Of a DNA stretch of 64,000 bases, positions 3,383-53,466 are shown in pieces. Source of the DNA: Octopus vulgaris (lineage: Eukaryota); assembly GCA_951406725.2 (NCBI GenBank), contig OX597826.1, positions 65,348,001 through 65,412,000 of the forward strand, in the 5' to 3' direction. Under the pieces are notes generated by a model. The model saw only the letters and a list, made by a program, of their open reading frames with translations. It was not told the DNA's origin and searched no databases. A program made the translations under genes and the position numbers. The stretch's first letter is position 1. Each line of letters begins with the position of its first letter.

Positions 3383-3397
3383 TCATTTTGTTTTGGA

Positions 3398-3495: not shown

Positions 3496-3644
3496 ACTTT
3501 ACTTTTAAATCACACACAAATTACCGGTTTCTTTTCGCTCTATGTGTGAAATAGTGAAGAAAATTCTCGAGTCACATGACTGAATTCAGGGCTTAAGGAG
3601 GTATCAAAAATACTTTCTCCATTGGTTAAATCTTTTTAGAAAGC

Positions 3645-3897
3645 AAGCGTGGGTGCGTGGAAAGAAGTTTGCTTCCCAACCACATGGTTCCAGGTCCAGT
3701 CTTCTACTAGAGTCTTCTATTATAGCCTTGGGCCGACTAAAACCTTGGAGGGAAACAGGAGTGGCTGTGTGGTAAGTAGCTTGTTTACCAACCACATGGT
3801 TCCGGGTTCAGTCCCACTGAATGGCACCTTGGGCAAGTGTCTTCTACTATAGCCTCAGGTCGACCAAAGCCTTGTGAGTGGATTTGGTAGACGGAAC
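3645..3897 (+). mobile_element. Two tandem tRNA-derived SINE heads
   Basis: A-box-like tggctgtgtggt and B-box-like ggttcagtccc. Same family as 30231, 38652 and 50092. Confidence 0.75.
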
Positions 3898-3969
3898 CGT
3901 TCGGCAGTGGTTCAGTAAAGATGCAGATTGACCACAACTGTTATCCTACTACATCATAAGCAAATTATT

Positions 3970-4238
3970 TTTTTTCCTTCTTTCTTCAAATTTTCCATAT
4001 ACCTAGGGCAGAGAAGCTCATTGTATGCATTCCCAGATTACACACGCAAATTCACAGGTAAAATATGAATTTAAAAAATTAATAAATGAATAAATTCATG
4101 AATGGAGGTTGTTTTCACAGTGATAATGCTCTTCTCAGTACATGAGCCGTTCCAGTTAACATGATTTTTTGCACTTCTTGTAGGGATGGTAAGCCTGGTA
4201 TCATTTTCAAATAGGTTTCAGCACCTTTTTCCATTCCT
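3970..4238 (-). mobile_element. 3' fragment of R4/Dong subfamily B
   Basis: Minus strand translates GMEKGAETYLKMIPGLPSLQEVQKIMLTGTAHVLRRALSL*, homologous to the C-terminus of the main Dong ORF. Abuts (TAA)n. Confidence 0.8.
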
Positions 4239-4260
4239 TATTATTATTATTATTATTATT

Positions 4261-4806
4261 GAGTGAGAGAGCAGTTCATGCCATCAAAGTGACACTGGGG
4301 TAAAATATACGAAGCACAGTATACCCATCATGACTACCCGTCTGATAAGGGTACACCAAGCACATGCATCACAACCATATGTGCGCAACATGGTGATCTC
4401 ATATCAAGATAAACAGCACATGACCTTGCAGGTGGGGCCCAGTTAGAATTTTCTTCAGGTTGAGTAGCCCATCCCGCTCAAACGGTCCCTGAATAAGGGT
4501 TGTTTAAGGATGTTAAAAAAACCACCCATGTTTCCAGAGGTGAATTATTCAAACCCCAAAGAATCCCTCTCAACACATGGCTATGATGCTCCACCACTAC
4601 TCGTGATCAGAGATGTACATATCGTCAGCCACTAAGGGACATTCTCAACTGGTTAAGGTCAAACAACTGACAAGCAAATCTGTGGTATTGAGCAGAATAT
4701 TTGCTGTAGCTCATCTTTTATACCAAGACAAAACAATGTACATGATAACACTTCCAATCAGTTAAGATCAGAAGCCATGAGAGCCACTGCCTGGTACTGC
4801 ATCAGG
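4261..4806. mobile_element. ~550-bp non-coding element in (TAA)n, copy 1
   Basis: Flanked by TTA runs on both sides. Colinear, diverged copy at 7086-7644 with the same ends. Confidence 0.75.
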
Positions 4807-4840
4807 TATTATTATTATTATAATTATTATTATTATTATT

Positions 4841-6970
4841 CAGTAGTTTTATTTTTATTTTTATAGCGTGCTTTCACTTCACTACCGAGCGCAGCTCTGT
4901 GTGCCTTGGGTATGTGCTGTGATTTGTTGTGATGCTCTGATGGTTATTGTATGGAAAGTGTTCTGCGTAGGATGTGTGCAGTGCCTAGTAGTGCAATTTT
5001 CTGTATGTTATATGTGTTTGTAAGTCCTGGTGTTTTTGTTATGTATTTGTCTGAATATTTTTTTATCATGCCTAATGCACCTACTATGATAGGAATTGTT
5101 TCTGTTTTCAGATTCCACATTCTAATTACCTCTATTTCCAGGTCTTTGTATTTTGAGAGTTTCTCCATTTCTTTTAGAGACACGTTGTCATCTGCCGGTA
5201 CTGATACATCAATTAGAAAGCATTTTTTTCTTCATGGTCTCTGACAACTATATCTGGTCTGTTGGCCTTAATTTCTCTATCTGTGTGTATCGGCATATCT
5301 CAGAGTATGGTTGCTTTCTCGTTTTCTGTGACCTTTTCTGGTGTGTGCCTATACCATCTTTTTTCTGTTGTTATTCCATAATGTTGGCATAGCTTCCAAT
5401 GTATGTAAGTTCCAACTCTGTCATGTCTGTGAATATATTCCTTCTTAGCCAGGACTGGGCAGCTAGAGATAATATGATTTATTGTTTCTTGTCCATCTCC
5501 ACATATTCTGCAGTTACTTGTAATATTTCTTTTCATTACATGTTTTTGGTAATTTCTGGTGGGGAGGCTTTGGTCTTGTGCTGCAATTAAAAATCCCTCT
5601 GTTTCTGCTTTGAGTCCTAAGCTTCTCAACCATTGCTGGGATTTTTCTTTGTCTATTTCTTTTGCGTTTAGTTTAGTCCAGTATTTATCATGAAGGGGCT
5701 TTTCTTGCCATCGTTTTATCATGGTTCGTTGCTGTTCTATTTTTAGTTTGGATATCATTTTTTTTATAGATTTTGTTGTTTCTTCATCTTCTTCTTCTTC
5801 TTCATGTTTATTAGGTGGTATGATTTCTTGTTTGTATTTGTCAGCTTCCTTAAATACTGAGAACAGTTTTTTGTTTTGCTCGTGTTTTGCCGCTATCTGG
5901 ATCAGTTTTCCTTCCTTCTGAAGTAGATATTTTTGCAGTCCTATGGTGGTTATTTTATAGTAGTTTTCCAGCTGTATAAGGCCTCTACCACCTTCTATAC
6001 GTTGTATATATAGTCTTTCTATGTCAGATTTTGGGTGATGCATCCTAGATCCTGTCATTATTTTTCTTGTTTTCCTGTCTATTTTGGTCAGTTCATTTCG
6101 TGTCCAGTTAAGGATATTGTAGCTGTAACTTATAACTGGGACAGCTAAAGTGTTGATACCTATTATCTTGTTTTTAGCATTGAGCTCTGTGTTTAGTATT
6201 GATCTAACTCGTCTATAATATTCTTTTTTTATTTTCTCTTTCATTTGTGTGTGTTGTGTCTTATCTAGTTCATGGATTCCTAAGTATTTGTAAGTTTGGC
6301 TTTGGTCTAATTCTTTTATTTCATTTGCTTCATCTAGTGTGATGTTGTTACTCTTAACTAGTTTTCCTCTTTTCATGGTTACTTTGGCGCATTTTTCTAA
6401 TCCAAATTTCATATCTATTTCTTTGGTAAATCCATGAACTGTCTTTAATAGTGTTTCCAGCTGTTTGTCATTTGCAGCGTATAGTTTTAGGTCATCCATA
6501 TATAAAAGGTGGCTGATCGTTTTGCCGTAACATTTATATCCGCATCCAGTTCTATTTAACATATCAGATAGAGGTGACAGTGCTAAGCAGAAAAGGAGTG
6601 GAGAGAGCGTATCTCCCTGGAATATTCCTCTTCTAATGGGGATGTCTTTGGTTTTCATGAGTCCCTCTTTTGTTTGGAAGTGTAGGACTGTTTGCCATTT
6701 ATTCATAGAGTGCTCTATGAATTTTATGATTGTTGGTGCTACTTTGTTAATGGCTAGTGTTTCGAGGATCCATGTGTGGGGGATGCTATCAAACGCCTTT
6801 TTGTAGTCAATCCAGGCCATACTGAGGCCTTTCTTCTTTCTGTGGCTGTCTTCAGTTATGGCTTTATTAATCATTAGTTGATCTTTACAGCCATATGAGC
6901 CTTTGTGGCATCCTTTCTGCTCTTCTGGGAACAGTTTGTTTTCGTCCAGGTGCTTGTTCAGCCTTTGTGA
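4841..6970 (-). mobile_element. 5'-truncated R4/Dong-clade non-LTR retrotransposon (RT, CCHC knuckle, restriction-like endonuclease), inactive
   Basis: RT motifs WIDYKKAFDS, GIFQGDTLSPLLF and YMDD; knuckle CRICGDGQETINHIISSC; REL motif RPD..LIDVS. Premature TGA at 5300. (TAA)n on both flanks, the known Dong target. Confidence 0.93.
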
Positions 6971-7027
<57 letters not shown>

Positions 7028-7029
7028 CA

Positions 7030-7085
<56 letters not shown>
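6971..7085. repeat. (TAA/TTA)n microsatellite; others at ~4239, 4807, 7645, 31177, 33750, 42297, 42704, 45353, 50714, 51100, 53470
   Basis: Directly visible. Source of the poly-I/N/L ORFs in the track. Confidence 0.95.
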
Positions 7086-7644
7086 GAGTGAGAGAGCAGT
7101 GCATGCCATCAAAGTGACACTGGGGTAAAATATACGAAGCCCAGAATACCCATCATGACTACCCGTCTGATAAGGGTTCACTAGGCACATGCATCAGAAC
7201 AATATGTGCGCGACATGATGATCTCATATCAAGATAAACAGCACATGACCTTGCAGGTGGGGCCCAGTTAGAATTTTCTTATGGTCGAATAACCCATCCC
7301 GCTCAAAAGGTCCCTGAATAAGGGTTGTTTAAGGATGTTGAAAGAAACACCCATGTTCCCAGAGGTGAATTATTCAAACCTCAAAGAATCCCTCTCAACA
7401 CATGGCTATGATGCTCCCCCACTACTTCTGCTCGTGATCAGAGATGCACATATCGTCAGCCATTAAGGGACATGGTCAACTGGTTAAGGTCAAACAACTA
7501 ACAAGCAAATCTGTGGTATTGAGCAGAATGTTTGCTGTAGCCCATCTTTTTTTTTTACCAAGATAAAATAATGTACATGATAACACTTACAATCAGTTAA
7601 GATCAGAAGCCATGAGAGCCTCTGACTGGTACTGCATCAGGCCA
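7086..7644. mobile_element. ~550-bp non-coding element in (TAA)n, copy 2
   Basis: Direct repeat of 4261-4806. Confidence 0.75.
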
Positions 7645-7710
7645 TTTATTATTATTATTATCATCATCATCATCATCATCATTATCATCATCATCATCAT
7701 CATCATCATC

Positions 7711-7747
<37 letters not shown>

Positions 7748-8202
7748 TCATTATTATTGTCTAAATCTCTCCGTTAAACAATGATCACAATGAGCAGACT
7801 TCACTCGCACTATGTATATGTACAGAACTACGTACAAATGTAAGTGCACGCGTGTGTCTATGTGTGGGTACAAAGAGAACACAAGACAGATAGTTAGAGT
7901 AATACAGATTTACACATCTACATATATGTTTTGCTACGGTTTTGCCTTTGTACGTTTATTTTCATTCTTTTTTTCTTTTTTCTGTCTTCAGTTTCTTTGT
8001 CATTTTCGTCCTTACCACTCCTAAAGAATCTCGTCCTCACCACTCCACGAACAAATACTGCGTTCTAAGAATATCAGCTTCTCAGACTCAGCACCAACTG
8101 TTAGACTTTCTAAAGTAAATTTACCTGGTCAAACTATAGATTAGTTTAGTTCCATACTTATAATTAAAAACAAGATTATTATACAATATCAAGGAAATGA
8201 GC

Positions 8203-11200
8203 CTCTTTGATCTCTGTCGGCACACTCTTTGTCAAATCGTCTCACACTTGTGTCAGCACCCTCTTTGATCTCTGTCGGCACCATCTTTGATCTCTGGCGG
8301 CGCCCTCTTTGATCTCTGTCGGCACTCTCTTTTATCTCTATTGGCATCCTCTTTGATCTCTGTCGGCACTCTCTTTGATCTCTGTCGGCACGCTCTTTGA
8401 TCTCTGTGGGCACGCTCTTTGATCTCTGACGACACCCTCTTTGATCTCTGTCAGCACTCTCTTTGATCTCTGCCGGCACTCTCTTTTATCTCTGTCGGCA
8501 TCCTCTTCGATCTCTGTCGAAACTCTCTTTGATCTCTGTCGGCACGCTCTTTGATCTCTTTCGGCACCCTATTTGATCTCTGGAATGTGAAGAATGTCTG
8601 GAATGTCAGGAATGTATGGAATGTCAGGAATGTCTGGAATGTATGGAATGTCAGGAATGTCTGGAATGTATGGAATGTCAGCAACGTCTTTGATCTCTGT
8701 CGGCACTCTCTTTGATCTCTGTCGGCATCCTCTTTGATCTCTGTCGGCACTCTCTTTGATCTCTGTCGACACGCTCTTTGATCTCTGTCGGCACGCTCTT
8801 TGATGTCTGTCGGCACGCTCTTTGAACTCTGTCGGCACCCTCTTTGATCTATGTCGGCACGCCCTTAGATCTCTTTCGGCACACTATTTGATGTATGTCG
8901 GCACCCTCTTTGATCTCTGTCGGCACCCTCTTTGATCTCTGCCGGCACTCTCTTTGATCAATGTCGGAACCGTCTTTGATCTCTGGAATGTATGGAATGC
9001 CAGGAATGTCTGGAATGTCAGGAATGTCTGGAATGTAAGGAATGTCTGGAATGTCAGGGATGTCAGGAATGTCAAGAATGTATGGAATGTCAGGAATGTC
9101 AGGAATGTCTGGAATGTATGGAATGTCCGGATGTCGGCATCCTCTTTGATCTCTGTCGGCACTCTCTTTGATCTCTGCCGACACGCTCTATGATCTCTGT
9201 CGGCACGCTCTTTGATGTCTGTCGGCACTCTCTTTGATCTCTTTCAGCACGCTCTTTGATCAATGTCGGCACGCTCTTTGATCTCTGTTTGCATCACTTT
9301 GATATCTGCCGGCACTCTCTTTTATCTCCGTCGACATCCTCTTTGTTCTCTGTCGGCAAGCTCTTTGATCTCTGTCGACACGCTCTTTGATCTCTTTCGG
9401 CACCCTCTTTGATCTCCGTCGGCACCCTCTTTGATCTCTTTCAGCACGCTCTTTGATCTCCGTCGGTACCCTCTTTAATCTCATTCGGCACACTCTTTGA
9501 TCTCTGTCGGCACCCTCTTTGATCTCTGGAATATCTGGAATGTCAGGAATGTCTGGAATGTCAGGAATGTCCGGAGTGTCAGGAATGTCAGGAGAGTCAG
9601 GAATGTCAGGAATATCTGGAATGTATGGAATGTCTGGAATGTCAGGAATGTCCGGAATGTCTGGAATGTCAGGGATCTCTGGAATGTCTGGAATGTCAGC
9701 AACGTCTTTGATCTCTGTCGGCACCCTATTTGATCTCTGTCGGCACTCTCTTTGAAATCTGTCCGCAATCTCTTTGATCTCTGTCGGCACCGTCTTTGAT
9801 CTCTGTCGGCACACTCATTGATCTCAGCCGACACTCTCTTTTATCTCTGTCGGCATCCTCTTTGATCTATGTCGGCATCCTCTTTGATCTCTGGAATGTC
9901 TGGAATGTCTGGAATGTCAGGAATATCTGGAATGTCAGGAATGACAGCACCGTCTTTTATCTTCGTCGACACCCACTTTGATCTCTGTCGGCACTCTCTT
10001 TGATCTATGTCGGCATCCTCTTTGATATCTGTCGGCACCGTCTTTGATCTCTCTCGGCACTCTCTTTTGATCTCTGTCGGAACGCTCTTTGATCTCTTTC
10101 GACACCCTCTTTGATCTCTGTCGGCACTCTCTTTGATCTCTGCCGAAACTCTCTTTGATCAATGTCGGCACGCTCTTTGATCTCTGTCGGCTCTCTCTTT
10201 GATCTCTGCCGTCATTCTCTTTTATCTCTGTCGGCATCCTCTTTGATCTCTCTCGGCACACTCTTTGATCTCTTTCGGCACCCTATTCGATCTCCGTCGA
10301 CACCCTCTTTGATCTCTGTCGGCACCCTCTTTGATCTCTGGAATATCTGGAATGTCTGGTATGTGTGTAATGTCAAGAATGTCTGGAATGTCAGGAATGT
10401 CTGGAATGTCAGGAATGTCTGGAGTGTCAGGAATGTCAGGAGAGTCAGGAATGGCAGGAATGTATGGAATGTATGGAATGTCAGGAATGTCCGGAATGTC
10501 TGGAATGTCAAGGATCTCTGGAATGACTGGAATGTCAGGAATGTCAGCAACGTCTTTGATCTCTGTCGGCGCCCTATTTGATCTCTGTCGGCACTCTCTT
10601 TGAAATCTGTCCGCATTCTCTTTGATCTCTGTCGGCACCGTCTTTGATCTCTGTCGGCACACTCTTTGATCTCTGCCGGCACTCTCTTTTATCTCTGTCG
10701 GCATCCTCTTTGATCTCTCTCGGCACAATCTTTGATCTCTTTCGGCACCCTCTTCGATCTCCGTCGACACCCTGTTTGATCTCTGTCGGCACCATGTTTG
10801 ATCTCATTCGGCACCCACTTTGATATCTTTCGGCACCCTCTTTGATCTCTCGGCACCCTCTTTGATCTCTGGAATATCTGGAACGTCTGGTATGTGTGTA
10901 ATGTCAAGAATGTCTGGAATGTCAGGAATGTCTGGAATGTCAGGAATGTCTGGAGAGTCAGGAATGTCAGGAGAGTCAGGAATGGCAGGATTGTATGGAA
11001 TGTATGGAATGTCAGGAATGTCCGGAATGTCTGGAATGTCAGAGATCTCTGGAATGACTGGAATGTCAGGAATGTCAGCAACGTCTTTGATCTCTGTCGG
11101 CACCCTATTTGATCTCTGTCGGCACTCTCTTTGAAATCTGTCCACATTCTCTTCGATCTCTGTCGGCACCGTCTTTGATCTCTGTCGGCACACTCTTTGA

Positions 11201-12330
11201 TCTCAGCCGGCACTCTGTTTTATCTCTGTCGGCATCCTCTTTGATCTTTGCCGGCGCACTCTTTGAGCTCTGCCGGCACTCTCTTTTATATCTGTCGGCA
11301 TCCTCTTTGATCTCTTTCGGCACTCCCTTTTATCTCTGTCGGCACTCTCTTTGATCTCTGCGACACTCTCTTTTATCTCTGTCGGCATCCTCTTTGATCT
11401 CTCTCGGCACTCTCTTTGATCTCTTGCGGCACCCTCTTTGATATCCGCCGACACCCTCTTTGATCTATGTCAGAACCCTCTTTGATCTCTGTCTTCACCC
11501 TCTTTGATCTCTGTCGGCACCGTCTTTGATCTCTGGAATGTCTGGAATGTCAAGAATGTGTGGAATGTCAGGAATGTCAGGAATGTCTCGAATGTCAGGA
11601 ATGTCTGGAATGTATGGAATGTTAGGAATGTCCGGATGTCTGGAATGTCAGGAATGTCAGCAATGTCTTTGATCTCTGTCCGCACTCTCTTTGATCTCTG
11701 TCGGCACTCTCTTTCATCTCTGCCGGCACTCTCTTTTATCTCTGTCGGCATCCTCTTTGATCTCACTCGGCACTCTCTTTGATCTCTTTCGGCACCCTCT
11801 TTGATATCCGTCGACACCCTCTTTGATCTCTGTCGGCACCCTCTTTGATCTCTTTTGGCACCAACTTTGATCTCTGTCGGCACCCTCTATGATCTCTTTC
11901 GGCACCCTCTTTGATCTCTGTCGGCACCCTCTTTGATCTCTGGAATGTCTGGAATGTCAAGAATTCCAGATATCAAAGAGGGTGCCGACAGAGATCAAAG
12001 AGAGTGCCGAAAGAAATCAAAGAGGGTGCCGACAGATATCAAAGAGGGTGTCGACGGATATCAAAAAGGGTGCCGGCAGAGATCAAAGAGAGTGCCGAGA
12101 GAGATCAAAGAGGATGCCGACAGAGATAAAAGAGAGTGCCGGCTGAGATCAAAGAGTGTGCCGACAGAGATCAAAGAGGATGCAGACAGAGATCAAAGAG
12201 AATGCGGACAGATTTCAAAGAGAGTGCCGATAGAGATCAAATAGGGTGCCGACAGAGATCAAAGACGTTGCAAGAATGTCTGGAATGTCGGGAATGTCTG
12301 GAATGTCAGGAATGTCAGGAATTTCAGGAA
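8203..12330. repeat. Compound minisatellite: 22-bp unit CTCTTTGATCTCTGTCGGCACN alternating with blocks of 9-bp GGAATGTC(A/T), with an inverted segment at ~11963-12271
   Basis: Units directly visible. Near-identical 9-mer blocks at ~10338 and ~10869 give a higher-order period of ~530 bp. Confidence 0.95.
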
Positions 12331-12920
12331 TGTTGCTGTTCTGTTTTTACTTGCTGTTCTATTTTTAGTTTATTTGTTCTATTTTTAGTCGCTGTTCTAT
12401 TTTTAGTTTATTTGTCCAATTTTTAGTTTATTTGTCCTATTTTGAGTTTATTTGTCCTATTTTTAGTTTATTTCTCCTATTTTTAATTTATTTGTTCTAT
12501 TTTAAGTTTATTTGTCCTAATTTTAGATGCTGTTCTATTTTTAGTTTATTTGTTCTATTTTTAGTTGCTGTTCTATTTTTAGTTTATTTGTTCTATTTTT
12601 AGTTGCTGTTCTATATTGGGTTTATTTGTTCTATTCTTAGTTGCTGTTCTATTTTTAGTTGCTGTTCTATTTTTAGTTTATTTGTTCTATTTTTTGTTGC
12701 TGTTCTAATTTTAGTTAACTTGTAATATTTTTAGCTGCTGTTCTATTTTTAGTTAATTTGTCCTATTTTTAGTTTATTTGTTCTATTTTTAGTTTATTTT
12801 TCCTATTCTTAGTTGCTGTTCTATTTTTAGTTTATTTCTTCTATTTTTAGTTTATTTGTCCTAATTTTAGTTGCTGTTCTATTTTTAGTTTATTTGTCCT
12901 ATTTTTAGTTTGTCCTATTT
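12331..12920. repeat. AT-rich minisatellite, 18/20-bp units (GTTGCTGTTCTATTTTTA and GTTTATTTGTTCTATTTTTA)
   Basis: Directly visible. Confidence 0.92.
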
Positions 12921-13820
12921 TTATAGCTTCTATTTATTGTTTCTATTTATTGTTTCTATTTATAGCTACTATTTATAGATTCTATTTATAGATTCTATTT
13001 ATAGATTCTATTTATAGATTCTATTTATAGATTGTATTTATAAATACTATTTATAGATTCTATTTATTTATTTATTTATTTATTTATTTATTCATTTATA
13101 GATTCTATTTATAGATTCTATTTATAGATTCTATTTATAGATACTATTTATATATTCTATTTATAGATTCTATTTATAGATTCTATTTATAGATTCTATT
13201 TATAGATTCTATTTATAGATACTATTTATTTATTTATTTATTTATTTATTTATAGATTCTATTTATAGATACTCTTTATTTATTTATTTATTTATAGATT
13301 CTATTAATAGATTCTATTTATTTGTTTATTTATTTATAAATTCAATTTATAGATTCTATTTATAGATTCTATTTATTTATTTATTTGTTTATTTCTTTAT
13401 TTATAGATTCTATTTATAGATTCTATTTATAGATTCTATTTATTTATATATTTATTTATAAATAGAATCTATAAATTGAATCTATAAATAGTATCTATAA
13501 ATAGAATCATTAAATTGCATCTATAAATAGAATCTATGAATAAATAAATAAATAAATAAATACATGAATAGAATCTGTAAATAGAATCTATAAATAGACT
13601 CTATAAATAAATAAATAAATAAATAAATAGAATCTATAAATAGAATCTATAAATAGAATCTATAAATAAATAAATAAATAGAATAAATAAATAAATAAAT
13701 AAATAAATAGAATCTATAAATAGAATCTATAAATAGAATCTATAAATAGAATCTATAAATAGAATCTATAAATAGTATCTATAAATAGAATCATTAAATA
13801 GTATCTATAAATAGAATCTA

Positions 13821-13851
<31 letters not shown>

Positions 13852-14399
13852 ATACATGAATAGAATCTATAAATACAATCATTAAATAGAATCTATAAAT
13901 AGAATCTATAAATAGAATCTATAAATAGAATCTATAAATAGAATCAATAAATAAATAAATAAATAAATAAATAGTATCTATAAATAGAATCTATAAATAG
14001 AATCTATAAATAGAATCTATAAATAGAATCTATAAATAGAATCTATAAATAGAATCTATAAATAGAATCTATAAATAGAATCAATAAATAGAATCTATAA
14101 ATAAATAAATAAATAAATAAATAGAATCTATAAATAGAATCTATAAAATAGAATCTATAAATAAAAAATAAAAAAATAAATAAATATATAAATAGAATCT
14201 ATAAATAGAATCTAAAAATAGAATCTATAAATAGAATCTATAAATAAATAAATAAATAAAGAAATAGAATCTATAAATAAATAAATAAATAAATAAATAG
14301 AATCTATAAATAAATAAATAAATAAATAAATAGAATGTATAAATAGAATCTATAAATAGAATCTATAAATAGAATCTATAAATAGAATCTATAAATAGT
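12921..14399. repeat. 13-bp satellite (CTATTTATAGATT)n mixed with (ATTT)n, switching to the reverse complement at ~13458
   Basis: Directly visible. Runs into the N gap. Confidence 0.92.
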
Positions 14400-14499
14400 N
14401 NNNNNNNNNNNNNNNNNNNNNNNNNNNNNNNNNNNNNNNNNNNNNNNNNNNNNNNNNNNNNNNNNNNNNNNNNNNNNNNNNNNNNNNNNNNNNNNNNNN
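14400..14499. other. Assembly gap (100 N)
   Basis: Run of N. Confidence 1.
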
Positions 14500-15683
14500 T
14501 AAAAGAAATGAACATTAAAAACAAGTGCACCGTCATCCATGCCCACACATTTTCCTCCTGTGACATCACAATTTTCTTTCACACACTGCGTTGCCATCTG
14601 AGATACCTCTGTTCTTTGGTCCTCACGTAACTGCACATTTGCAAACTTCTTCTTTTCTGCTTCTCCCTTGGCTATGTAGAGCTGTCACACAACCTCCCCT
14701 TGACTATCTGTTACAGTTCCAAGGTAGCCCCACTCTTCCAGGCTTTCCAGGCCTGTTTCTTTGCTCTAATGCCCTTGTCTACTATATTATTCCACCATCA
14801 CATTTCTCTGAGTCTGGAAGGGACTTTGCCCCAGCCCCACATTTGGTCTGTGGTGCTCAGTAAGCTATTTCGTAGGAATTTCCAACTACGCACTATGTCC
14901 AAAGAATGTGGCTCCTCCTCCCACTCATCAGATTTCTCGATGACGATCTCCCTAAATCTCTGACCATGTGAAGGGTTCTTTAGCTTCCAAATCTTCTTTT
15001 CTGCATTGGTCTGCTGCTTGGCATTCTTCGACCTAGAGTCTAAAGTCAATAATGACAAATCTATTCTGGGGTTTACATTCTTCACCCGGGAGTGCCTTTG
15101 TATTTATGAGCAACCCTGTGTACCACTGTCTGTTGATGGTGAAATAAATCTGGCTAGCAGAGTCACATGATTGATAGGTTATCAACTGGTTGCCTGGCTT
15201 CCTGAAGTTAGTGTTGCAGATTAATAGCTTACATACATATGCGACTATGGATGCATTTAACATAGTATGAGATAAGCCTCCTGTTACCAGGGTAGAGATG
15301 AACTTACATTTCAGATCTTAATCCAGAGAAGTTAAAACATGTTTCTATACGTGAATGTAGATATATGAGTTCCAATCGGAAGGTATTGAGACATCTCTTA
15401 TGGTAACAGGATTGACTATGCCAAGACTGACCTGCAGCTGTCATGTAGACTCATTAATTAATACATTCACACTCACATTAGTTATAGCTGTGTTTCACAA
15501 TAAATTGTATGCTCTATGATCATCTTTGAAATGACACCTTTTTCTGCTGCCAAGAATCTCATTAATTGTGTCGAGAGAGTCAAAGGAATTTGCCACACAC
15601 GGGATTTCTCTCTTGAGAAAAATTGAAGCCAAATATATCTCTAATCATACATTATTTTCTTTCAAAATTTGCAGAATACATAC

Positions 15684-15749
15684 CTCCTTGATTGGGTTGC
15701 TGTGTGCTTTGTTCTCCATTTCCTACAACTTGAGGAATTTCCGTAGTAC
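15684..15749 (-). CDS. 66-nt symmetric phase-1 exon (GTTEIPQVVGNGEQSTQQPNQG); further copies 17205-17271 (67 nt, +1 indel), 18726-18791, 20245-20310, 21762-21827, 23283-23348, 24802-24867, 28172-28237
   Basis: Acceptor catttcttttaag| and donor GAG|gtatgt. Length is a multiple of 3 with no stop. Confidence 0.65.
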
Positions 15750-18700
15750 CTTAAAAGAAATGTACAAAAATAAGGAACTGAACAACAACATATGTACTAA
15801 GATGTAAGATACAATATGGATATTATACTATGATATATCCACACATTACATAGATCTCCAATTAGTCCCTCATGTCCTAACCTACACACGATGTCCTACT
15901 ATAACAACACTCATCATAGCTTGTCCCTCTACTGGATCAACATTTGGCAGGATCTCCTCCTCCCATTTATTCTCCACATTCAGCAGCCTTTCATAATGTC
16001 TTCTCCAAGACTCTTTCTTTTCAGAATCATTAAAAACAAGTGCACCGTCATCCATGCCCACACATTTCCCTCCTGTGACATCACAATTTTCTTTCACACA
16101 CTGTCTTGCAATCTGAAATACTTCTGTTCTTTGGTCCTCAAGTCACTGAACATTGGCAAACTTCTTCTTTTCTGCTTCTCCCTTAGCTATGTAGAGCTGT
16201 TACACAGCCTCCCCTTGACTATCTGTTACAGTTCCTAAGGTACCTCCACTCTTCCAGGCTTTCCAGGCCTGTTTCTTTGCTCTAATGCCCTTGTCTACCA
16301 TATTATTCCACCATCACATTTCTCTGGGTCTGAAGGGACTTTGCCCCAGCCCCACATTTGGTCTGTGGTGCTCAGTAAGCTGTTTCGTAGGAATTTCCAA
16401 CTACTCACTATGTCCAAAGTATGTTGCTCCTCCTCTCCTCCCACTCATCAAATTTCTCAATGACGATCTCCCTAAATCTCTGACCATGTGAAGTGTTCTT
16501 TAGCTTCCAAATCTTCTTTTCTGCATTGGTCTGCTGCTTGGCATTCATCGACCTTGAGTCTAAAGTCAATAATGACAAATCTATTCTGGGGTTTACATTC
16601 TTCACCCGGGAGTGCCTTTGTATTTATGAGCAACCCTGTGTACCACTGTCTGTTGATGGTGAAATAAATCTGGCTAGCAAAATCACATGATTGATAGGTT
16701 ATCAACTGGTTGCCTGGCTTCCTGAAGTTAGTGTTGCAGATTAATAGGTTACATACATATGCGACTATGGATGCATTTAACATAGTATGAGATAAGCCTC
16801 TGTTATCAGGGTAGAGATGAACTTACATTTCAGATCTTAATCCAGAGAAGTTAAAACATGTTTTTACGCGTTAATGTAATATATGAGTTCCAATCGGAAG
16901 GTATTGAGACATCTCTTATGGTAACAGGATTGACTATGCCAAGACTGACCTGCAGCTGTCATGTAGACTCATTAATTAATACATTCACACTCGCATCAGT
17001 TATAGCTGTGTTTCACAATAAATTGTATGCTCTATGATCATCTTTGAAATGACACCTTTTTCTGCTGCCAAGAATCTCATTAATTGTGTCGAGAGAGTCA
17101 AAGGAATTTGCCACACACGGGATTTCTCTCTTCTTGAGAAAAATTGAAGCCAAATATATCTCTAATCATACATTATTTTCTTTCAAAATTTGCAGAATAC
17201 ATACCTCCTTGATTGGGTTGCTGTGTGCTTTGTTCTCCATTTCCTACAACTTGAGGAATTTCCAGTAGTACCTTAAAAGAAATGTACAAAAATAAGGAAC
17301 TGAACAACAACATATGTACTAAGATGTAAGATACAATATGGATATTATACTATGATATATCCACACATTACATAGATCTCCAATTAGTCCCTCATGTCCT
17401 AACCTACACACGATGTCCTACTATAACAACACTCATCATAGCTTGTCCCTCTACTGGATCAACATTTGGCAGGATCTCCTCCTCCCATTTATTCTCCACA
17501 TTCAGCAGCCTTTCATAATGTCTTCTCCAAGACTCTTTCTTTTCAGAATCATTAAAAACAAGTGCACCGTCATCCATGCCCACACATTTCCCTCCTGTGA
17601 CATCACAATTTTCTTTCACACACTGTCTTGCAATCTGAAATACTTCTGTTCTTTGGTCCTCAAGTCACTGAACATTGGCAAACTTCTTCTTTTCTGCTTC
17701 TCCCTTAGCTATGTAGAGCTGTTACACAGCCTCCCCTTGACTATCTGTTACAGTTCCTAAGGTACCTCCACTCTTCCAGGCTTTCCAGGCCTGTTTCTTT
17801 GCTCTAATGCCCTTGTCTACCATATTATTCCACCATCACATTTCTCTGGGTCTGGAAGGGACTTTGCCCCAGCCCCACATTTGGTCTGTGGTGCTCAGTA
17901 AGCTGTTTCGTAGGAATTTCCAACTACTCACTATGTCCAAAGTATGTTGCTCCTCCTCTCCTCCCACTCATCAAATTTCTCAATGACGATCTCCCTAAAT
18001 CTCTGACCATGTGAAGTGTTCTTTAGCTTCCAAATCTTCTTTTCTGCATTGGTCTGCTGCTTGGCATTCATCGACCTCGAGTCTAAAGTCAATAATGACA
18101 AATCTATTCTGGGGTTTACATTCTTCACCCGGGAGTGCCTTTGTATTTATGAGCAACCCTGTGTACCACTGTCTGTTGATGGTGAAATAAATCTGGCTAG
18201 CAAAATCACATGATTGATAGGTTATCAACTGGTTGCCTGGCTTCCTGAAGTTAGTGTTGCAGATTAATAGGTTACATACATATGCGACTATGGATGCATT
18301 TAACATAGTATGAGATAAGCCTCTGTTATCAGGGTAGAGATGAACTTACATTTCAGATCTTAATCCAGAGAAGTTAAAACATGTTTTTACGCGTTAATGT
18401 AATATATGAGTTCCAATCGGAAGGTATTGAGACATCTCTTATGGTAACAGGATTGACTATGCCAAGACTGACCTGCAGCTGTCATGTAGACTCATTAATT
18501 AATACATTCACACTCGCATCAGTTATAGCTGTGTTTCACAATAAATTGTATGCTCTATGATCATCTTTGAAATGACACCTTTTTCTGCTGCCAAGAATCT
18601 CATTAATTGTGTCGAGAGAGTCAAAGGAATTTGCCACACACGGGATTTCTCTTCTTGAGAAAAATTGAAGCCAAATATATCTCTAATCATACATTATTTT

Positions 18701-31235: not shown

Positions 31236-31644
31236 AGTATGGCCTCGATTGACTACAAAGTATGGCCTGGATTGACTACAGGTATGGCCTGGATTGACTA
31301 CAAAGTATGGCCTGGATTGACTACAAAGTATGGCCTGGATTGACTACAAAGTATGGCCTGGATTGACTACAAAGTATGGCCTGGATTGACTACAAAGTAT
31401 GGCCTGGATTGACTACAAAGTATGGCCTGGATTGACTACAAAGTATGGCCTGGATTGACTACAAAGTATGGCCTGGATTGACTACAAAGTATGGTCTGGA
31501 TTGACTACAAAGTATGGCCTGGATTGACTACAAAGTATGGCCTGGATTGACTACAAGTATGACCTGGATTGACTACAAAGTATGGCCTGGATTGACTACA
31601 AAGTATGGCCTGGATTGACTACAAAGTATGGCCTGGATTGACTA
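31236..31644 (+). repeat. 23-bp tandem array AGTATGGCCTGGATTGACTACAA (~18 units)
   Basis: Unit identical to the Dong RT coding sequence for SMAWIDYK (e.g. 31799-31821). Confidence 0.95.
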
Positions 31645-33746
31645 TAATAAAGATCAACTAATGATTAATAAAGCCATAACTGAAGACAGCCACAGAAAGA
31701 AGAAAGGCCTCGGTATGGCCTGGATTGACTATAATAAAGATCAACTAATGATTAATAAAGCCATAACTGAAGACAGCCACAGAAAGAAGAAAGGCCTCAG
31801 TATGGCCTGGATTGACTACAAAAAGGCGTTTGATAGCATCCCCCACACATGGATCCTCGAAACACTAGCCATTAACAAAGTAGCACCAACAATCATAAAA
31901 TTCATAGAGCACTCTATGAATAAATGGCAAACAGTCCTACACCTTCAAACAAAAGAGGGACTCATGAAAACCAAAGACATCCCCATTAGAAGAGGAATAT
32001 TCCAGGGAGACATGCTCTCTCCACTCCTTTTCTGCTTGGCACTGTCACCTCTATCTGATATGCTAAATAGAACTGGATGCGGATATAAATGTTACGGCAA
32101 AACGATCAGCCACCTTTTATATATGGATGACCTAAAACTATACGCTGCAAATGACAAACAGCTGGAAACACTATTAAAGACATAGATATGAAATTTGGAT
32201 TAGAAAAATGCGCCAAAGTAACCATGAAAAGAGGAAAACTAGTTAAGAGTAACAACATCACACTAGATAAAACCAATGAAATAAAAGAATTAGACCAAAG
32301 CCAAACTTACAAATACTTAGGAATCCATGAACTAGATAAGACACAACACACACAAATGAAAGAGAAAATAAAAAAAGAATATTATAGACGAGTTAGATCA
32401 ATACTAAACACAGAGCTCAATGCTAAAAACAAGATAATAGGTATCAACACTTTAGCTGTCCCAGTTTTAAGTTACAGCTACAATATCCTTAACTGGACAC
32501 GAAATGAACTGACCAAAATAGATAGGAAAACAAGAAAAATAATGACAGGATCTAGGATGCATCACCCAAAATCTGACATAGAAAGACTATATATACAATG
32601 TATAGAAGGTGGTAGAGGCCTTATACAGCTGGAAAACTACTATAAAATAACCACCATAGGACTGCAAAAATATCTACTTCAGAAGGAAGGAAAACTGATC
32701 CAGATAGCGGCAGAACATGAGCAAAACAAAAAACTGTTCTCAGTATTTAAGGAAGCTGACAAATACAAACAAGAAATCATACCACCTAATAAACATGAAG
32801 AAGAAGATGAAGAAACAACAAAAGCTATAAAACAAATGAAATCCAAACTAAAAATAGAACAGCAACGGACCATGATAAAACGATGGCAAGAAAAGCCCCT
32901 TCATGGTAAATACTGGACTAAACTAAACGCAAAAGAAATAGACAAAGAAAAATCCCAGCAATGGTTGAGAAGCTCAGGACTCAAAGCAGAAACAGAGGGA
33001 TTTTTAATTGCAGCACAAGACCAAAGCCTTCCCACCAGAAATTACCAAAAACATGTAATGAAAAGAAATATTACAAGTAACTGCAGAATATGTGGAGATG
33101 GACAGGAAACAATAAATCATATTATCTCTAGCTGCCCAGTCCTGGCTAAGAAGGAATATATTCACAGACATGACAGAGTTGGAACCTACATACATTGGAA
33201 GCTATGCCAACATTATGGAATAACAACAGAAAAAAGATGGTATAGGCACACACCAGAAAAGGTCACAGAAAACGAGAAAGCAACCATACTCTGGGATATG
33301 CCGATACACACAGATAGAGAAATTAAGGCCAACAGACCAGATATAGTTGTCAGAGACCATGAAGAAAAAAATGCTTTCTAATTGATGTATCAATACCGGC
33401 TGATGACAACGTGTCTCTAAAAGAAATGGAGAAACTCTCAAAATACAAAACCTGGAAATAGAGGTAACTAGAATGTGGAATCTGAAAACAGAAACAATTC
33501 CTATCATAGTAGGTGCATTAGGCATGATAAAAAAATATTCAGACAAATACATAACAAAAACACCAGGACTTACAAACACATATAACACACAGAAAATTGC
33601 ACTACTAGGCACTGCACACATCCTACACAGAACACTTTCCATACAATAACCATCAGAGCATCACAACAAATCACAGCACATACCCAAGGCACACAGAGCT
33701 GCGCTCGGTAGTGAAGTGAAAGCACGCTATAAAAATAAAACTACTG
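31645..33746 (+). mobile_element. 5'-truncated R4/Dong element, copy A (frameshifted)
   Basis: Near-identical to 4841-6970. Deletion at ~32182 and frameshifts near 33370 and 33450. Ends ctactg + (TAA)n. Confidence 0.93.
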
Positions 33747-42791: not shown

Positions 42792-43294
42792 AAGTATGGC
42801 CTGGATTGACTATAAAGTATGGCCTGGATTGACTACAAAGTATGGCCTGGATTGACTATAAAGTATGGCCTGGATTGACTACAAAGTACGGCCTGGATTG
42901 ACTACAAAGTATGGCCTGGATTGACTACAAAGTATGGCCTGGATTGACTACAAAGTATGGCCTGGATTGACTATAAAGTATGGCCTGGATTGACTACAAA
43001 GTATGGCCTGGGTTGACTACAAAGTATGGCCTGGATTGACTACAAAGTATGGCCTGGATTGACTACAAAGTATGGCCTGGATTGACTACAAAGTATGGCC
43101 TGGATTGACTACAAAGTATGGCCTGGGTTGACTACAAAGTATGGCCTGGATTGACTACAAAGTATGGCCTGGATTGACTACAAGTATGGCCTGGATTGAC
43201 TACAAAGTATGGCCTGGATTGACTACAAAGTATGGCCTGGATTGACTACAAAGTATGGCCTGGATTGACTACAAAGTATGGCCTGGATTGACTA
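42792..43294 (+). repeat. 23-bp Dong-derived tandem array (~22 units)
   Basis: Same unit as 31236. Confidence 0.95.
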
Positions 43295-45034
43295 TAATAA
43301 AGATCAAATAATGATTAATAAAGCCATAACTGAAGACAGCCACAGAAAGAAGAAAGGCCTCAGTATGGCCTGGATTGACTATAATAAAGATCAACTAATG
43401 ATTAATAAAGCCATAACTGAAGACAGCCACAGAAAGAAGAAAGGCCTCAGTACGGCCTGGATTGACTACAAAAAGGCGTTTGATAGCATCCCCCACACAT
43501 GGATCCTCGAAACACTAGCCATTAACAAAGTAGCACCAACAATCATAAAATTCATAGAGCACTCTATGAATAAATGGCAAACAGTCCTACACCTCCAAAC
43601 AAAAGAGGGACTCATGAAAACCAAAGACATCCCCATTAGAAGAGGAATATTCCAGGGAGACATGCTCTCTCCACTCCTTTTCTGCTTGGCACTGTCACCT
43701 CTATCTGATATGCTAAATAGAACTGGATGCGGATATAAATGTTACGGCAAAACGATCAGCCACCTTTTATATATGGATGACCTAAAACTATACGCTGCAA
43801 ATGACAAACAGCTGGAAACACTATTAAAGACAGTTCATGGATTTACCAAAGAAATAGATATGAAATTTGGATTAGAAAAATGCGCCAAAGTAACCATGAA
43901 AAGAGGAAAACTAGTTAAGAGTAACAACATCACACTAGATAAAACCAATGAAATAAAAGAATTAGACCAAAGCCAAACTTACAAATACTTAGGAATCCAT
44001 GAACTAGATAAGACACAACACACACAAATGAAAGAGAAAATAAAAAAGAATATTATAGACGAGTTAGATCAATACTAAACACAGAGCTCAATGCTAAAAA
44101 CAAGATAATAGGTATCAACACTTTAGCTGTCCCAGTTATAAGTTACAGCTACAATATCCTTAACTGGACACGAAATGAACTGACCAAAATAGATAGGAAA
44201 ACAAGAAAAATAATGACAGGATCTAGGATGCATCACCCAAAATCTGACATAGAAAGACTATATATACAATGTATAGAAGGTGGTAGAGGCCTTATACAGC
44301 TGGAAAACTACTATAAAATAACCACCATAGGACTGCAAAAATATCTACTTCAGAAGGAAGGAAAACTGATCCAGATAGCGGCAAAACACGAGCAAAACAA
44401 AAAACTGTAGTCAGTATTTAAGGAAGCTGACAAATACAAACAAGAAATCATACGACCTAATAAACATGAAGAAGAAGAAGTTGAAGAAACAACAAAAGCT
44501 ATAAAACAAATGAAATCCAAACTAAAAATAGAACAGCAACGAACCATGATAAAACGATGGCAAGAAAAGCCCCTTCATGGTAAATACTGGACTAAACTAA
44601 ACGCAAAAGAAATAGACAAAGAAAAATCCCAGCAATGGTTGAGAAGCTCAGGACTCAAAGCAGAAACAGAGGGATTTTTAATTGCAGCACAAGACCAAAG
44701 CCTCCCCACCAGAAATTACCAAAAACATGTAATGAAAAGAAATATTACAAGTAACTGCAGAATATGTGGAGATGGACAGGAAACAATAAATCATATTATC
44801 TCTAGCTGCCCAGTCCTGGCTAAGAAGGAATATATTCACAGACATGACAGAGTTGGAACCTACATACATTGGAAGCTATGCCAACATTATGGAATAACAA
44901 CAGAAAAAAGATGGTATAGGCACACACCAGAAAAGGTCACAGAAAACGAGAAAGCAACCATACTCTGTGATATGCCGATACACACAGATAGAGAAATTAA
45001 GGCCAACAGACCAGATATAGTTGTCGAGACCATG
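43295..45034 (+). mobile_element. R4/Dong copy B, truncated at both ends, with frameshift and stop
   Basis: Near-identical to copies A and C. Breaks off in the REL domain. Confidence 0.92.
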
Positions 45035-45352
45035 AAGTTCCTGTTATTGTAGGTGCCCTAGGTATAATAAGTTCCTGTTATTGTAGGTGCCCTAGGTATG
45101 ATAAAAAAGGGATGTCAGAAACACCTAGACAATATCCCTGGAAAACCATGTCTCAAGGAAATCCAAAAGATTGTGCTAACAAGTACTGCCCACATCCTTA
45201 GAAAAACCCTATCAATGTAAATGTCTGTGTTTGCATTACATGGAGATATATCTCTACTTCCCCTCCCCAAGCTTTCAGCTATATTTCAACAACTCTTAAC
45301 CTTCACTTGCCCTAGGGCGCTGGGTGTGCCCCGGCAGGTGATTGCATCAAAC
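45035..45352 (+). mobile_element. 3' fragment of R4/Dong subfamily D, with a 34-bp duplication at its 5' end
   Basis: Translates VPVIVGALGMIKKGCQKHLDNIPGKPCLKEIQKIVLTSTAHILRKTLSM* plus UTR and (TAA)n. Confidence 0.85.
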
Positions 45353-51202: not shown

Positions 51203-51428
51203 AAGTATGGCCTGGATTGACTACAAAGTATGGCCTGGATTGACTACAAGTATGGCCTGGATTGACTACAAAGTATGGCCTCGATTGACTATAAAGTATG
51301 GCCTGGATTGACTACAAAGTATGGCCTGGTTTGACTACAAGTATGGCCTGGATTGACTACAAAGTATGGCCTGGGTTGACTACAAAGTATGGCCTGGATT
51401 GACTACAAAGTATGGCCTGGATTGACTA
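51203..51428 (+). repeat. 23-bp Dong-derived tandem array (~10 units)
   Basis: Same unit as 31236. Confidence 0.95.
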
Positions 51429-53466
51429 TAATAAAGATCAACTAATGATTAATAAAGCCATAACTGAAGACAGCCACAGAAAGAAGAAAGGCCTCAGTAC
51501 GGCCTGGATTGACTACAAAAAGGCGTTTGATAGCATCCCCCACACATGGATCCTCGAAACACTAGCCATTAACAAAGTAGCACCAACAATCATAAAATTC
51601 ATAGAGCACTCTATGAATAAATGGCAAACAGTCCTACACCTCCAAACAAAAGAGGGACTCATGAAAACCAAAGACATCCCCATTAGAAGAGGAATATTCC
51701 AGGGAGACATGCTCTCTCCACTCCTTTTCTGCTTGGCACTGTCACCTCTATCTGATATGCTAAATAGAACTGGATGCGGATATAAATGTTACGGCAAAAC
51801 GATCAGCCACCTTTTATATATGGATGACCTAAAACTATACGCTGCAAATGACAAACAGCTGGAAACACTATTAAAGACAGTTCATGGATTTACCAAAGAA
51901 ATAGATATGAAATTTGGATTAGAAAAATGCGCCAAAGTAACCATGAAAAGAGGAAAACTAGTTAAGAGTAACAACATCACACTAGATAAAACCAATGAAA
52001 TAAAAGAATTAGACCAAAGCCAAACTTACAAATACTTAGGAATCCATGAACTAGATAAGACACAACACACACAAATGAAAGAGAAAATAAAATAAGAATA
52101 TTATAGACGAGTTAGATCAATACTAAACACAGAGCTCAATGCTAAAAACAAGATAATAGGTATCAACACTTTAGCTGTCCCAGTTATAAGTTACAGCTAC
52201 AATATCCTTAACTGGACACGAAATGAACTGACCAAAATAGATAGGAAAACAAGAAAAATAATGACAGGATCTAGGATGCATCACCCAAAATCTGACATAG
52301 AAAGACTATATATACAATGTATAGAAGGTGATAGAGGCCTTATACAGCTGGAAAACTACTATAAAATAACCACCATAGGACTGCAAAAATATCTACTTCA
52401 GAAGGAAAACTGATCCAGATAGCGGCAAAACATGAGCAAAACAAAAAACTGTTCTCAGTATTTAAGGAAGCTGACAAATACAAACAAGAAATCATACCAC
52501 CTAATAAACATGAAGAAGAAGAAGTTGAAGAAACAACAAAAGCTATAAAACAAATGAAATCCAAACTAAAAATAGAACAGCAACGAACCATGATAAAACG
52601 ATGGCAAGAAAAGCCCCTTCATGGTAAATACTGGACTAAACTAAACGCAAAAGAAATAGACAAAGAAAAATCCCAGCAATGGTTGAGAAGCTCAGGACTC
52701 AAAGCAGAAACAGAGGGATTTTTAATTGCAGCACAAGACCAAAGCCTCCCCACCAGAAATTACCAAAAACATGTAATGAAAAGAAATATTACAAGTAACT
52801 GCAGAATATGTGGAGATGGACAGGAAACAATAAATCATATTATCTCTAGCTGCCCAGTCCTGGCTAAGAAGGAATATATTCACAGACATGACAGAGTTGG
52901 AACCTACATACATTGGAAGCTATGCCAACATTATGGAATAACAACAGAAAAAAGATGGTATAGGCACACACCAGAAAAGGTCACAGAAAACGAGAAAGCA
53001 ACCATACTCTGGGATATGCCGATACACACAGATAGAGAAATTAAGGACAACAGACCAGATATAGTTGTCAGAGACCATGAAGAAAAAAAATGCTTTCTAA
53101 TTGATGTATCAATACCAGCTGATGACAACGTGTCTCTAAAAGAAATGGAGAAACTCTCAAAATACAAAGACCTGGAAATAGAGGTAACTAGAATGTGGAA
53201 TCTGAAAACAGAAACAATTCCTATCATAGTAGGTGCATTAGGCATGATAAAAAAATATTCAGACAAATACATAACAAAAACACCAGGACTTACAAACACA
53301 TATAACACACAGAAAATTGCACTACTAGGCACTGCACACATCCTACACAGAACACTTTCCATACAATAACCATCAGAGCATCACAACAAATCACAGCACA
53401 TACCCAAGGCACACAGAGCTGCACTCGGTAGTGAAGTGAAAGAACGCTATAAAAATAAAACTACTG
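51429..53466 (+). mobile_element. R4/Dong copy C (stop at ~52093, frameshift ~52405)
   Basis: RT, CCHC and REL motifs. Ends ctactg + (TAA)n. Confidence 0.93.

What the first reader, a model, noticed from the sequence alone, without database searches (positions are those of the whole stretch)
12331..12960. AT-rich satellite seeded from the Dong retrotransposon coding sequence
Seen: GTTGCTGTTCTATTTTTAGTTT (e.g. 12564-12585) is a 22-bp exact match to Dong 5728-5749 (KLKIEQQ codons). Its terminal GTT redundancy yields the 18-bp repeat unit directly. Shorter, weaker matches follow: ATTTATTGTTTCT (12932 = 5477-5489) and TTTATAGATT (the 13-mer core = 5763-5772). With the 23-mer arrays, this is a second satellite derived from the same element. 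Inference: Dong RNA/cDNA or its genomic copy can template reiterative, telomerase-like synthesis of new tandem repeats.
Basis: partly seen in the sequence, partly recalled or inferred. Interest (0 to 1): 0.75.

Follow-up and report, generated by a model that had tools for sequence, protein, structure and literature searches.

The report
Retrotransposon fragment seeded a MEF2-site satellite
One 18-letter unit of a very abundant satellite DNA is identical to a piece of a Dong jumping gene's coding sequence and carries a textbook MEF2 binding motif; it was likely copied from the jumping gene once and then likely multiplied by ordinary DNA slippage and recombination, not by telomerase-like reverse transcription.

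Summary
The 22-bp match is real (four exact copies in the array, present in all four Dong copies) and beyond chance for this pair: 0 of 2400 simulations reach it. The array is one block of a 6.2-kb composite satellite. Its 18- and 20-bp units are thousands-fold more abundant in public contigs than the local junction, under three organism labels, so closeness to a Dong copy means nothing. The matched piece is centred on CTATTTTTAG, a MEF2 consensus site: 73 strict sites lie in the 18/20/13-bp blocks, and the only four elsewhere in the window are this Dong position. The reverse-transcription idea is not supported. Dong-identical units never run longer than two, derived variants recur in multi-unit blocks, and no TAA target flanks the array. 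The three 23-mer arrays are one insertion triplicated later. Best reading: a Dong fragment seeded the unit once, and DNA-level processes amplified and spread it (about 0.6; chance match 0.2; RT seeding 0.12). Satellites born from transposon ORFs are known. The new point is a traceable origin for one monomer of a satellite made of transcription-factor motifs. Binding is untested, and mutations in this block do not spare the site.

The parts
12331..12908 (+). A/B block: 12 units of 18 bp (A, Dong-identical type, e.g. 12565-12582) interleaved with 18 units of 20 bp (B, e.g. 12545-12564); both end in the core CTATTTTTAG; 20 strict CTAWWWWTAG sites
12909..12965 (+). Transition from B to 13-bp units; holds TTTTATAGCTT and TTGTTTCT, which follow the 22-mer in the same order in Dong copies 2-4; the junction 12915-12919 is low-copy
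12966..13450 (+). C block: 13-bp unit with core CTATTTATAG, mixed with (TATT)n runs; 20 strict sites counted over 12912-13450
13457..14399 (-). C block inverted, running into an assembly gap (N 14400-14499); 33 strict sites counted over 13451-14399
8205..12330 (+). Rest of the composite satellite: 22-bp units (CTTTGATCT plus GCCG on the other strand, TCF-like) alternating with 9-bp units (GGAATG, TEAD-like); one 22-mer block is inverted at about 11964-12270; no significant match to the Dong part held in the window
5728..5749 (+). The 22-bp Dong segment (antisense of KLKIEQQ codons); holds the only strict MEF2-type site (5737-5746) in this 2.1-kb copy
4807..6962 (-). Dong-type LINE copy 1, 5'-truncated, between TAA runs; RT and zinc-binding domains
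31735..33746 (+). Dong copy 2; the 22-mer lies at 32845-32866
43385..45352 (+). Dong copy 3 (similarity to copy 1 ends at about 45037); the 22-mer lies at 44519-44540
51432..53466 (+). Dong copy 4; the 22-mer lies at 52563-52584; C-terminal CCHC knuckle and endonuclease-like motif
31236..31734 (+). 23-mer array (18 units) and 87-bp duplication at the 5' junction of copy 2; same junction as copies 3 and 4
42793..43384 (+). 23-mer array (22 units) and 87-bp duplication at the 5' junction of copy 3
51204..51431 (+). 23-mer array (10 units) at the 5' junction of copy 4
8169..8245 (+). Left junction of the satellite with two snippets (24 and 15 nt exact) of the stretch 2389-2492, 5.8 kb upstream

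Best explanation
The array is one block of an abundant composite satellite, and its 18-bp unit is identical to a coding segment of a Dong LINE from which it was likely copied once, after which ordinary DNA-level slippage, unequal exchange and conversion likely multiplied and dispersed it. Steps. (1) Shown: the Dong ORF holds a MEF2-consensus decamer between two GTT triplets 18 bp apart. (2) Inferred: a microhomology-guided duplication in a genomic Dong copy, or a short templated insertion of Dong DNA into an existing satellite, made the first A units, in an ancestor and probably not at this locus. (3) Inferred: B (20 bp) and C (13 bp) units arose from A by small changes outside the decamer, possibly using the next 40 nt of Dong. 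(4) Shown by shared derived variants: multi-unit blocks were duplicated as DNA. (5) Shown by contig depth: A/B and C units are far more abundant than the local junction in three public data sets. (6) Untested: the arrays would bind MEF2.
For: 22-bp identity; 0 of 2400 simulations reach it. Expected chance matches: 3e-5 for this array against this element and 3e-4 for the whole satellite. The Dong segment aligns as an ordinary coding stretch, without insertion, in 13 homologues, so the direction is Dong to satellite. The 40 nt after the 22-mer in Dong copy 3 are covered 29 of 40 by 7-mers of the array (3 of 1825 other overlapping windows reach this; Markov p 0.004-0.005). They align in order with the B-to-C transition (score 36; 1 of 1819 other windows). 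Both statistics were chosen after seeing the match. Unit string AABAbbbbBbABABABAABABAbBbABbAb with longest A run 2; CTAATTTTAG recurs in a B-b-A context at 12517 and 12861, and CTATTCTTAG before an A at 12631 and 12803. Summed contig depth at 12885-12889 is 1.03e6, 1.28e6 and 1.26e5 in X1, X2 and X16, against 101, 207 and 41 at 12915-12919 (the tool warns depth is not a copy number). The 23-mer arrays changed copy number after DNA duplication. The satellite's left junction carries two snippets of one nearby stretch, as a DNA-templated insertion would. Slippage between short flanking repeats is the textbook route for TE-derived minisatellites (PMC6947457, passages).
Against: No birth locus was seen. 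No Dong sequence precedes the 22-mer, and none of the displayed joints or loose ends bridges Dong and the array (15 of 153 joints and 15 of 743 loose ends shown; 5 joints and 18 of 42 loose ends). Five unrelated metagenome stretches hold the exact 22-mer, and two of them match the array over 27 bp. The GTT redundancy is 3 nt, shorter than the 5-10 bp of the Haber-Louis model. B is equally well explained by a TATT microsatellite unit replacing GC. The TCF-like and TEAD-like units do not match the 3' 2 kb of Dong (10 and 9 nt).
Confidence: 0.6

Rival explanations
1. Chance convergence: the satellite grew from AT-rich microsatellite sequence around a MEF2-like core, and one variant happens to equal a T-rich stretch of Dong.
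For: Both sequences are very T-rich (Dong strand 921 of 2093 T). The look-elsewhere estimate reaches 0.4. Unrelated metagenome DNA holds the 22-mer 5 times, twice with a 27-bp match to the array. No bridging sequence was seen.
Against: 0 of 2400 simulations. Given the 10-bp core, the other 12 letters match with probability 1e-7 to 2e-6. The donor is a very high-copy family (70,743 contigs laid in X1). The downstream collinearity has p about 0.004.
Confidence: 0.2
2. One reading: the Dong reverse transcriptase re-primes repeatedly on a short stretch of its RNA or cDNA, writing tandem units in a telomerase-like way; these seeds later evolve as DNA.
For: The 23-mer unit is an exact Dong 23-mer placed at a 5' truncation junction next to the TAA target, with nested duplications. 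The related R2 polymerase jumps templates and uses microhomology at 5' junctions (PMC2718515, passages). Known DNA mechanisms explained only 6% of human TE-derived repeats in one survey (PMC3389668, section 3.4).
Against: The 23-mer case is one event triplicated. Its 87-bp unit and some 23-mer units contain target-derived TAA that the Dong copy lacks at that position, so they were copied from the integrated junction. A units never run more than two, 6 of 12 differ from Dong, and there is no TAA flank.
Confidence: 0.12
3. Reverse direction: the Dong lineage took the 22 bp from the satellite.
For: The region is a poorly conserved linker that could tolerate replacement.
Against: The segment is in frame and aligns without insertion to 13 homologues, keeping K456 invariant. 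All four copies carry it.
Confidence: 0.04
4. Assembly artefact next to a gap.
For: The satellite ends at an N gap and has two internal inversions. Raw-read run X19 laid nothing on the tested stretch, which is no test.
Against: 17 runs of 8 studies hold words of 11940-13000. A/B, transition and C sequence are all covered in X1, X2 and X16, and contigs of X2 and X16 cross the local B-to-C junction. The full length and the inversions were not checked with reads.
Confidence: 0.02

Closest known systems
Satellites and minisatellites derived from LINE ORFs: chicken HinfI from CR1, PROsat from L1 ORF2, 7,276 human TE-derived repeats (PMC9659126, passages; PMC3389668, abstract and section 3.4)
   Same: A piece of a non-LTR retrotransposon coding region becomes a tandem unit that then expands by local duplication.
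   Different: The unit is only 18 bp, has left its parent element, is thousands-fold amplified inside a mosaic of other units, and is centred on a transcription-factor consensus site.
Haber-Louis origin of minisatellites between short direct repeats (as reviewed in PMC6947457, passages)
   Same: The unit is bounded in the donor by a direct repeat (GTT) exactly one unit apart.
   Different: The repeat is 3 nt, not 5-10, and the birth array inside the donor was not found.
Human Satellite 3 as a transcription-factor platform (PMC11526998, abstract and passages)
   Same: Tandem repeats dense in consensus motifs; the neighbouring 9-bp block carries the same GGAATG TEAD core.
   Different: Binding is shown for HSat3 and untested here; MEF2 does not occur in that main text (0 hits); here one monomer traces to a LINE ORF.
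Dong (R4 clade) non-LTR retrotransposons (PMC7998251, passages; Dong-R4 recently active in Octopus vulgaris, PMC13282606, first third of text and passages)
   Same: RT plus C-terminal endonuclease-like region, insertion in TAA repeats, young near-identical copies.
   Different: All four copies are 5'-truncated, so the N-terminal Myb-like domain could not be checked; clade placement rests on domains and target, not on a tree.

Membership tests
Dong (R4 clade) LINE, for the donor | Reverse transcriptase domain | tested here: met
   Pfam RVT_1 E 2.8e-25
Dong (R4 clade) LINE, for the donor | C-terminal CCHC knuckle and restriction-like endonuclease | tested here: met
   C-x2-C-x8-H-x4-C invariant in 14 sequences; RPD...IDVSIP...K motif in copy 4. 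The motif's meaning is recalled; no profile hit was obtained.
Dong (R4 clade) LINE, for the donor | Insertion into (TAA)n repeats | tested here: met
   TAA runs at both ends of the copies; target stated in PMC7998251
Dong (R4 clade) LINE, for the donor | N-terminal Myb/SANT-like domain; phylogenetic placement with named Dong elements | not tested
   Copies are 5'-truncated; no tree built; best homologues (up to 55% over the full query) are unnamed
TE-derived minisatellite/satellite | Unit matches a TE segment beyond chance | tested here: met
   residual genome-wide chance estimated at 0.02-0.4
TE-derived minisatellite/satellite | Array overlaps or adjoins the parent element (birth locus) | tested here: inconclusive
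   Not at this locus; none among the joints and loose ends displayed, which were a small part of all; no whole genome held
Haber-Louis slippage origin | 5-10 bp direct repeats flank the unit in the donor | tested here: not met
   Only 3 nt, a feature of 85 of 2072 windows
Telomerase-like reiterative RT product | Homogeneous run of template-identical units | tested here: not met
   Longest A run 2; 6 of 12 A units identical to Dong; 18 of 30 units are non-Dong B
Telomerase-like reiterative RT product | Marks of target-primed insertion (TAA flanks) | tested here: not met
   No run of two or more TAA/TTA in 8205-14399
Telomerase-like reiterative RT product | Enzyme reiterates a short template in vitro | not testable with these tools
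   Needs biochemistry
Transcription-factor platform satellite (HSat3-like) | Dense consensus motifs | tested here: met
   73 strict CTAWWWWTAG in 12331-14399 against 4 in the 57.7 kb outside the satellite, all four in Dong; consensus from PMC3250504
Transcription-factor platform satellite (HSat3-like) | Factor binds the array in cells | not testable with these tools
   No binding data available
Transcription-factor platform satellite (HSat3-like) | Mutations spare the motif (my own added test of selection) | tested here: not met
   16 of 300 differences inside the core against 9 of 258 outside, leaving out one T/C dimorphic site (18 of 276 with it); 21 of 30 units keep the relaxed consensus

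The most novel reading that the evidence does not exclude
Transcription-factor binding decides which retrotransposon fragments become satellites. Of some 1750 possible short slippage units in this part of Dong, only 13 hold a perfect MEF2 site, and one of those became a mass-amplified satellite monomer. It kept the site while its spacer changed from 8 to 10 to 3 bp, and it joined TCF-type and TEAD-type blocks. LINE coding sequence would then be the raw material for multi-pathway binding platforms, with MEF2 occupancy driving their spread.
Probability: 0.25. Interest if true: 0.7.

Novelty: new variant of a known kind. Interest (0 to 1): 0.4.

Why it matters
The added value is that one monomer of a satellite family made of transcription-factor motifs can be traced to a specific LINE codon stretch, the only MEF2 consensus site in the 2.1 kb of element available (9 of 2076 18-nt windows hold it). 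That makes an open question testable: do such satellites look like binding sites because binding selects them, or because short AT-rich repeats often resemble some motif? A known donor gives an ancestral state and a full set of unused alternative units as the control.

Tried and rejected
The 13-bp and 10-bp secondary matches were rejected as chance. Physical closeness to Dong copy 1 was rejected as evidence: both repeats are very abundant, and the array tail fits copies 2-4 better than copy 1 (score 36 against 30.5). Counting the 23-mer arrays as three events was rejected (shared flank). A synonymous-codon null (25 of 3000 reach 22 or more) keeps the protein, which itself fixes most letters, so it does not test origin; it only shows the match says little about codon choice. 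No Dong origin was found for the 22-bp and 9-bp units in the 3' 2 kb; the 5' half of Dong was not available. Selection on the MEF2 core within this block was not found. Two protein searches found no near-identical full-length Dong. Raw-read runs gave little: X20 laid 0 and X18 19 reads on Dong, X19 0 on the array stretch. The metagenome scan gave 5 unrelated stretches. Sequence look-ups in earlier findings returned nothing.

Full report
Setting. The window holds four 5'-truncated copies of a LINE with an RT domain (Pfam RVT_1), a C-terminal CCHC knuckle and endonuclease-like motif (the motif's meaning is recalled), and TAA runs at its ends. That fits Dong of the R4 clade, whose target is (TAA)n in molluscs (PMC7998251, passages). 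Earlier AI notes on this genome call it an octopus; I did not test that. Dong-R4 is the LINE group with most recently active insertions in Octopus vulgaris (PMC13282606, first third of the text and passages; supplements not opened) and is abundant across coleoids (PMC8967140, passages). No whole genome is held for this window.

Observation. The 22-bp identity is exact, occurs four times in the array and once in every Dong copy, and reads KLKIEQQ on the minus strand. In 2400 Markov simulations of the Dong strand (orders 1-4) the longest shared word with 12331-12960 was at most 19, usually 10-13; the 22-mer has a probability of about 1.6e-11 per position. Eighteen non-Dong tiles of the window give 8-12. 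With all satellites and all repeat families of a large genome allowed for, I estimate 0.02-0.4 chance matches of this size; the library sizes are my assumption. The 22-mer also occurs in 5 unrelated metagenome stretches, two of which match the array over 27 bp. So chance is unlikely but not excluded.

Anatomy. The array is one block of a composite satellite from about 8205 to the gap at 14400. It begins with 22-bp and 9-bp blocks. Then come 12 A units (18 bp) mixed with 18 B units (20 bp), then a short transition, then 13-bp C units, which invert at about 13455. A, B and C share a decamer: CTATTTTTAG in A and B, CTATTTATAG in C. Both fit the MEF2 consensus CTAWWWWTAG, and CTATTTTTAG is the Drosophila Actin57B site, reported as bound by schistosome Mef2 (PMC3250504, passages; that shift is given as data not shown). 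There are 73 strict sites in 12331-14399 and four in the 57.7 kb outside the satellite, all at this one Dong position. The 22-bp unit holds CTTTGATCT, 9 of the 11 letters of the HMG site quoted in PMC4154663, and GCCG, which fits the short Helper consensus RCCG (passages). The 9-bp unit holds the TEAD core GGAATG (PMC11526998, passages). Earlier notes describe a genome-wide family of such motif satellites here; they led me to look for motifs and are not independent support.

Abundance. Seventeen runs of 8 studies hold words of 11940-13000. Laying contigs on the 131-bp stretch 12860-12990 gave summed depths of 1.03e6, 1.28e6 and 1.26e5 on A/B sequence in X1, X2 and X16 (three organism labels), 7e4, 2.7e5 and 3e4 on C sequence, and only 101, 207 and 41 on the local B-to-C junction. 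Depth is not a copy number, and X1 may be the source of the assembly. Still, a ratio of 3,000-10,000 shows the units are a widespread family and not a local product. Contigs of X2 and X16 cross the junction. Dong is similarly abundant in X1 (70,743 contigs laid). Their closeness in this window therefore carries no information.

Direction and extent of the Dong link. The segment aligns as a normal coding stretch with 13 homologues, so Dong did not gain it as an insertion. Nothing upstream of the 22-mer matches the array (6 nt at best). Downstream there is a modest extra signal in copies 2-4. The next 40 nt are covered 29 of 40 by 7-mers of the array, which 3 of 1825 other overlapping windows reach (Markov p 0.004-0.005; with 6-mers 70 of 1825, with 8-mers 14 of 1825). 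They include the B prefix within one edit, an 11-mer of the transition and an 8-mer after it, in order (alignment score 36, reached by 1 of 1819 windows). These tests were chosen after seeing the match. B can also be read as A with a TATT unit in place of GC. I treat the extension as suggestive: the donor may be some 60 bp, not 22.

Mechanism. Reiterative reverse transcription predicts a uniform run of template-identical units at an insertion site. Instead A units never run more than two, half differ from Dong, and derived variants recur in the same multi-unit context. The block joins a 9-bp block directly, and the satellite has no TAA run. The 87-bp junction duplication is seen in X1 at depth 327, about three times the low-copy junction, consistent with one triplicated event. 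Their copy numbers are 18, 22 and 10. Units ending in the junction's TAA occur 1, 4 and 2 times, counting the junction unit itself, so the arrays grew from integrated DNA. The first duplication at that 5' junction could still be an RT template switch, as R2 polymerase can jump and uses microhomology (PMC2718515, passages); sequence alone cannot decide. For the A unit, GTT triplets 18 bp apart offer a slippage route of the Haber-Louis type (PMC6947457, passages), though 3 nt is short and common. A second route is templated insertion into an existing satellite. The left junction here carries 24-nt and 15-nt exact snippets of one stretch 5.8 kb upstream (3e-5 expected for the second given the first, unless that snippet came from another copy of the repeat it lies in). 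None of the displayed joints or loose ends bridged Dong and the array, but only a small share was displayed.

Function. Only 9 of 2076 18-nt windows of copy 1, and 13 of 1753 candidate slippage units of 10-40 bp, hold a strict MEF2 site, yet that piece is the one amplified, and the core persists through three unit lengths. This suggests a filter by protein binding. Against it, differences within this block fall inside the core at least as often as outside (16 of 300 against 9 of 258, or 18 of 276 with the dimorphic site). Earlier notes report that spreading variants spare the sites in other unit types; this block does not show that. No binding data exist here.

Relation to what is known. Satellites from LINE ORFs are on record (PMC9659126, passages), and 23% of human mini- and larger satellites derive from TEs, mostly by unexplained initiation (PMC3389668, abstract and section 3.4). 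Motif-dense satellites that bind factors are shown for HSat3 (abstract). My searches (listings only unless named above) returned no paper on a Dong-derived satellite, a MEF2-site satellite or these octopus repeats. The library lacks most subscription journals, and unopened supplements such as the repeat library of PMC13282606 may list the family.

Verdict. Observation partly confirmed; Dong origin of the 18-bp unit likely (about 0.8); telomerase-like synthesis unlikely (0.12); best whole account 0.6. New variant of a known kind; interest 0.4. The boldest reading left open, binding-driven selection of LINE fragments into multi-factor platforms, has probability about 0.25.

Noticed in passing
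window 8169-8201 and 8231-8245 against 2389-2492: Two snippets (32 nt at 91% with 24 exact; 15 nt exact) of one 100-bp stretch 5.8 kb upstream sit at the satellite's left junction in swapped order, like a DNA-templated insertion at a repair junction.
   Followed up: partly
window 11964-12270 and about 13455: Two inversions inside the composite satellite: a 300-bp block of 22-mers flipped between 9-mer blocks, and a head-to-head switch in the 13-mer block. Not checked with reads.
   Followed up: no
window 4261-4806 and 7086-7645: A 560-bp element occurs twice (92% alike), each time between TAA-type microsatellite runs on either side of Dong copy 1; possibly a non-autonomous element that shares Dong's target.
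   Followed up: no
window 14500-29370: A tandem repeat of about 1.52 kb, roughly ten copies at 98-99% identity, starting right after the gap; diverged 730-bp relatives at 36950-37673 and 48390-49113.
   Followed up: no
window about 29100-54200: Overlapping segmental duplications (93-99%) carry the same Dong insertion three times; copy 3 has a different 3' end and copy 4 lacks one 87-bp unit.
   Followed up: partly
window 12920-12949: This 13-bp variant pair is itself a subfamily with very different depth between data sets (about 30,000 in X1, 5,600 in X2, 350 in X16), suggesting rapid turnover between related organisms.
   Followed up: no
window 5780-5803: A (TTC)n repeat in the Dong ORF codes a poly-Glu linker just next to the matched segment and varies in length among reads.
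   Followed up: no
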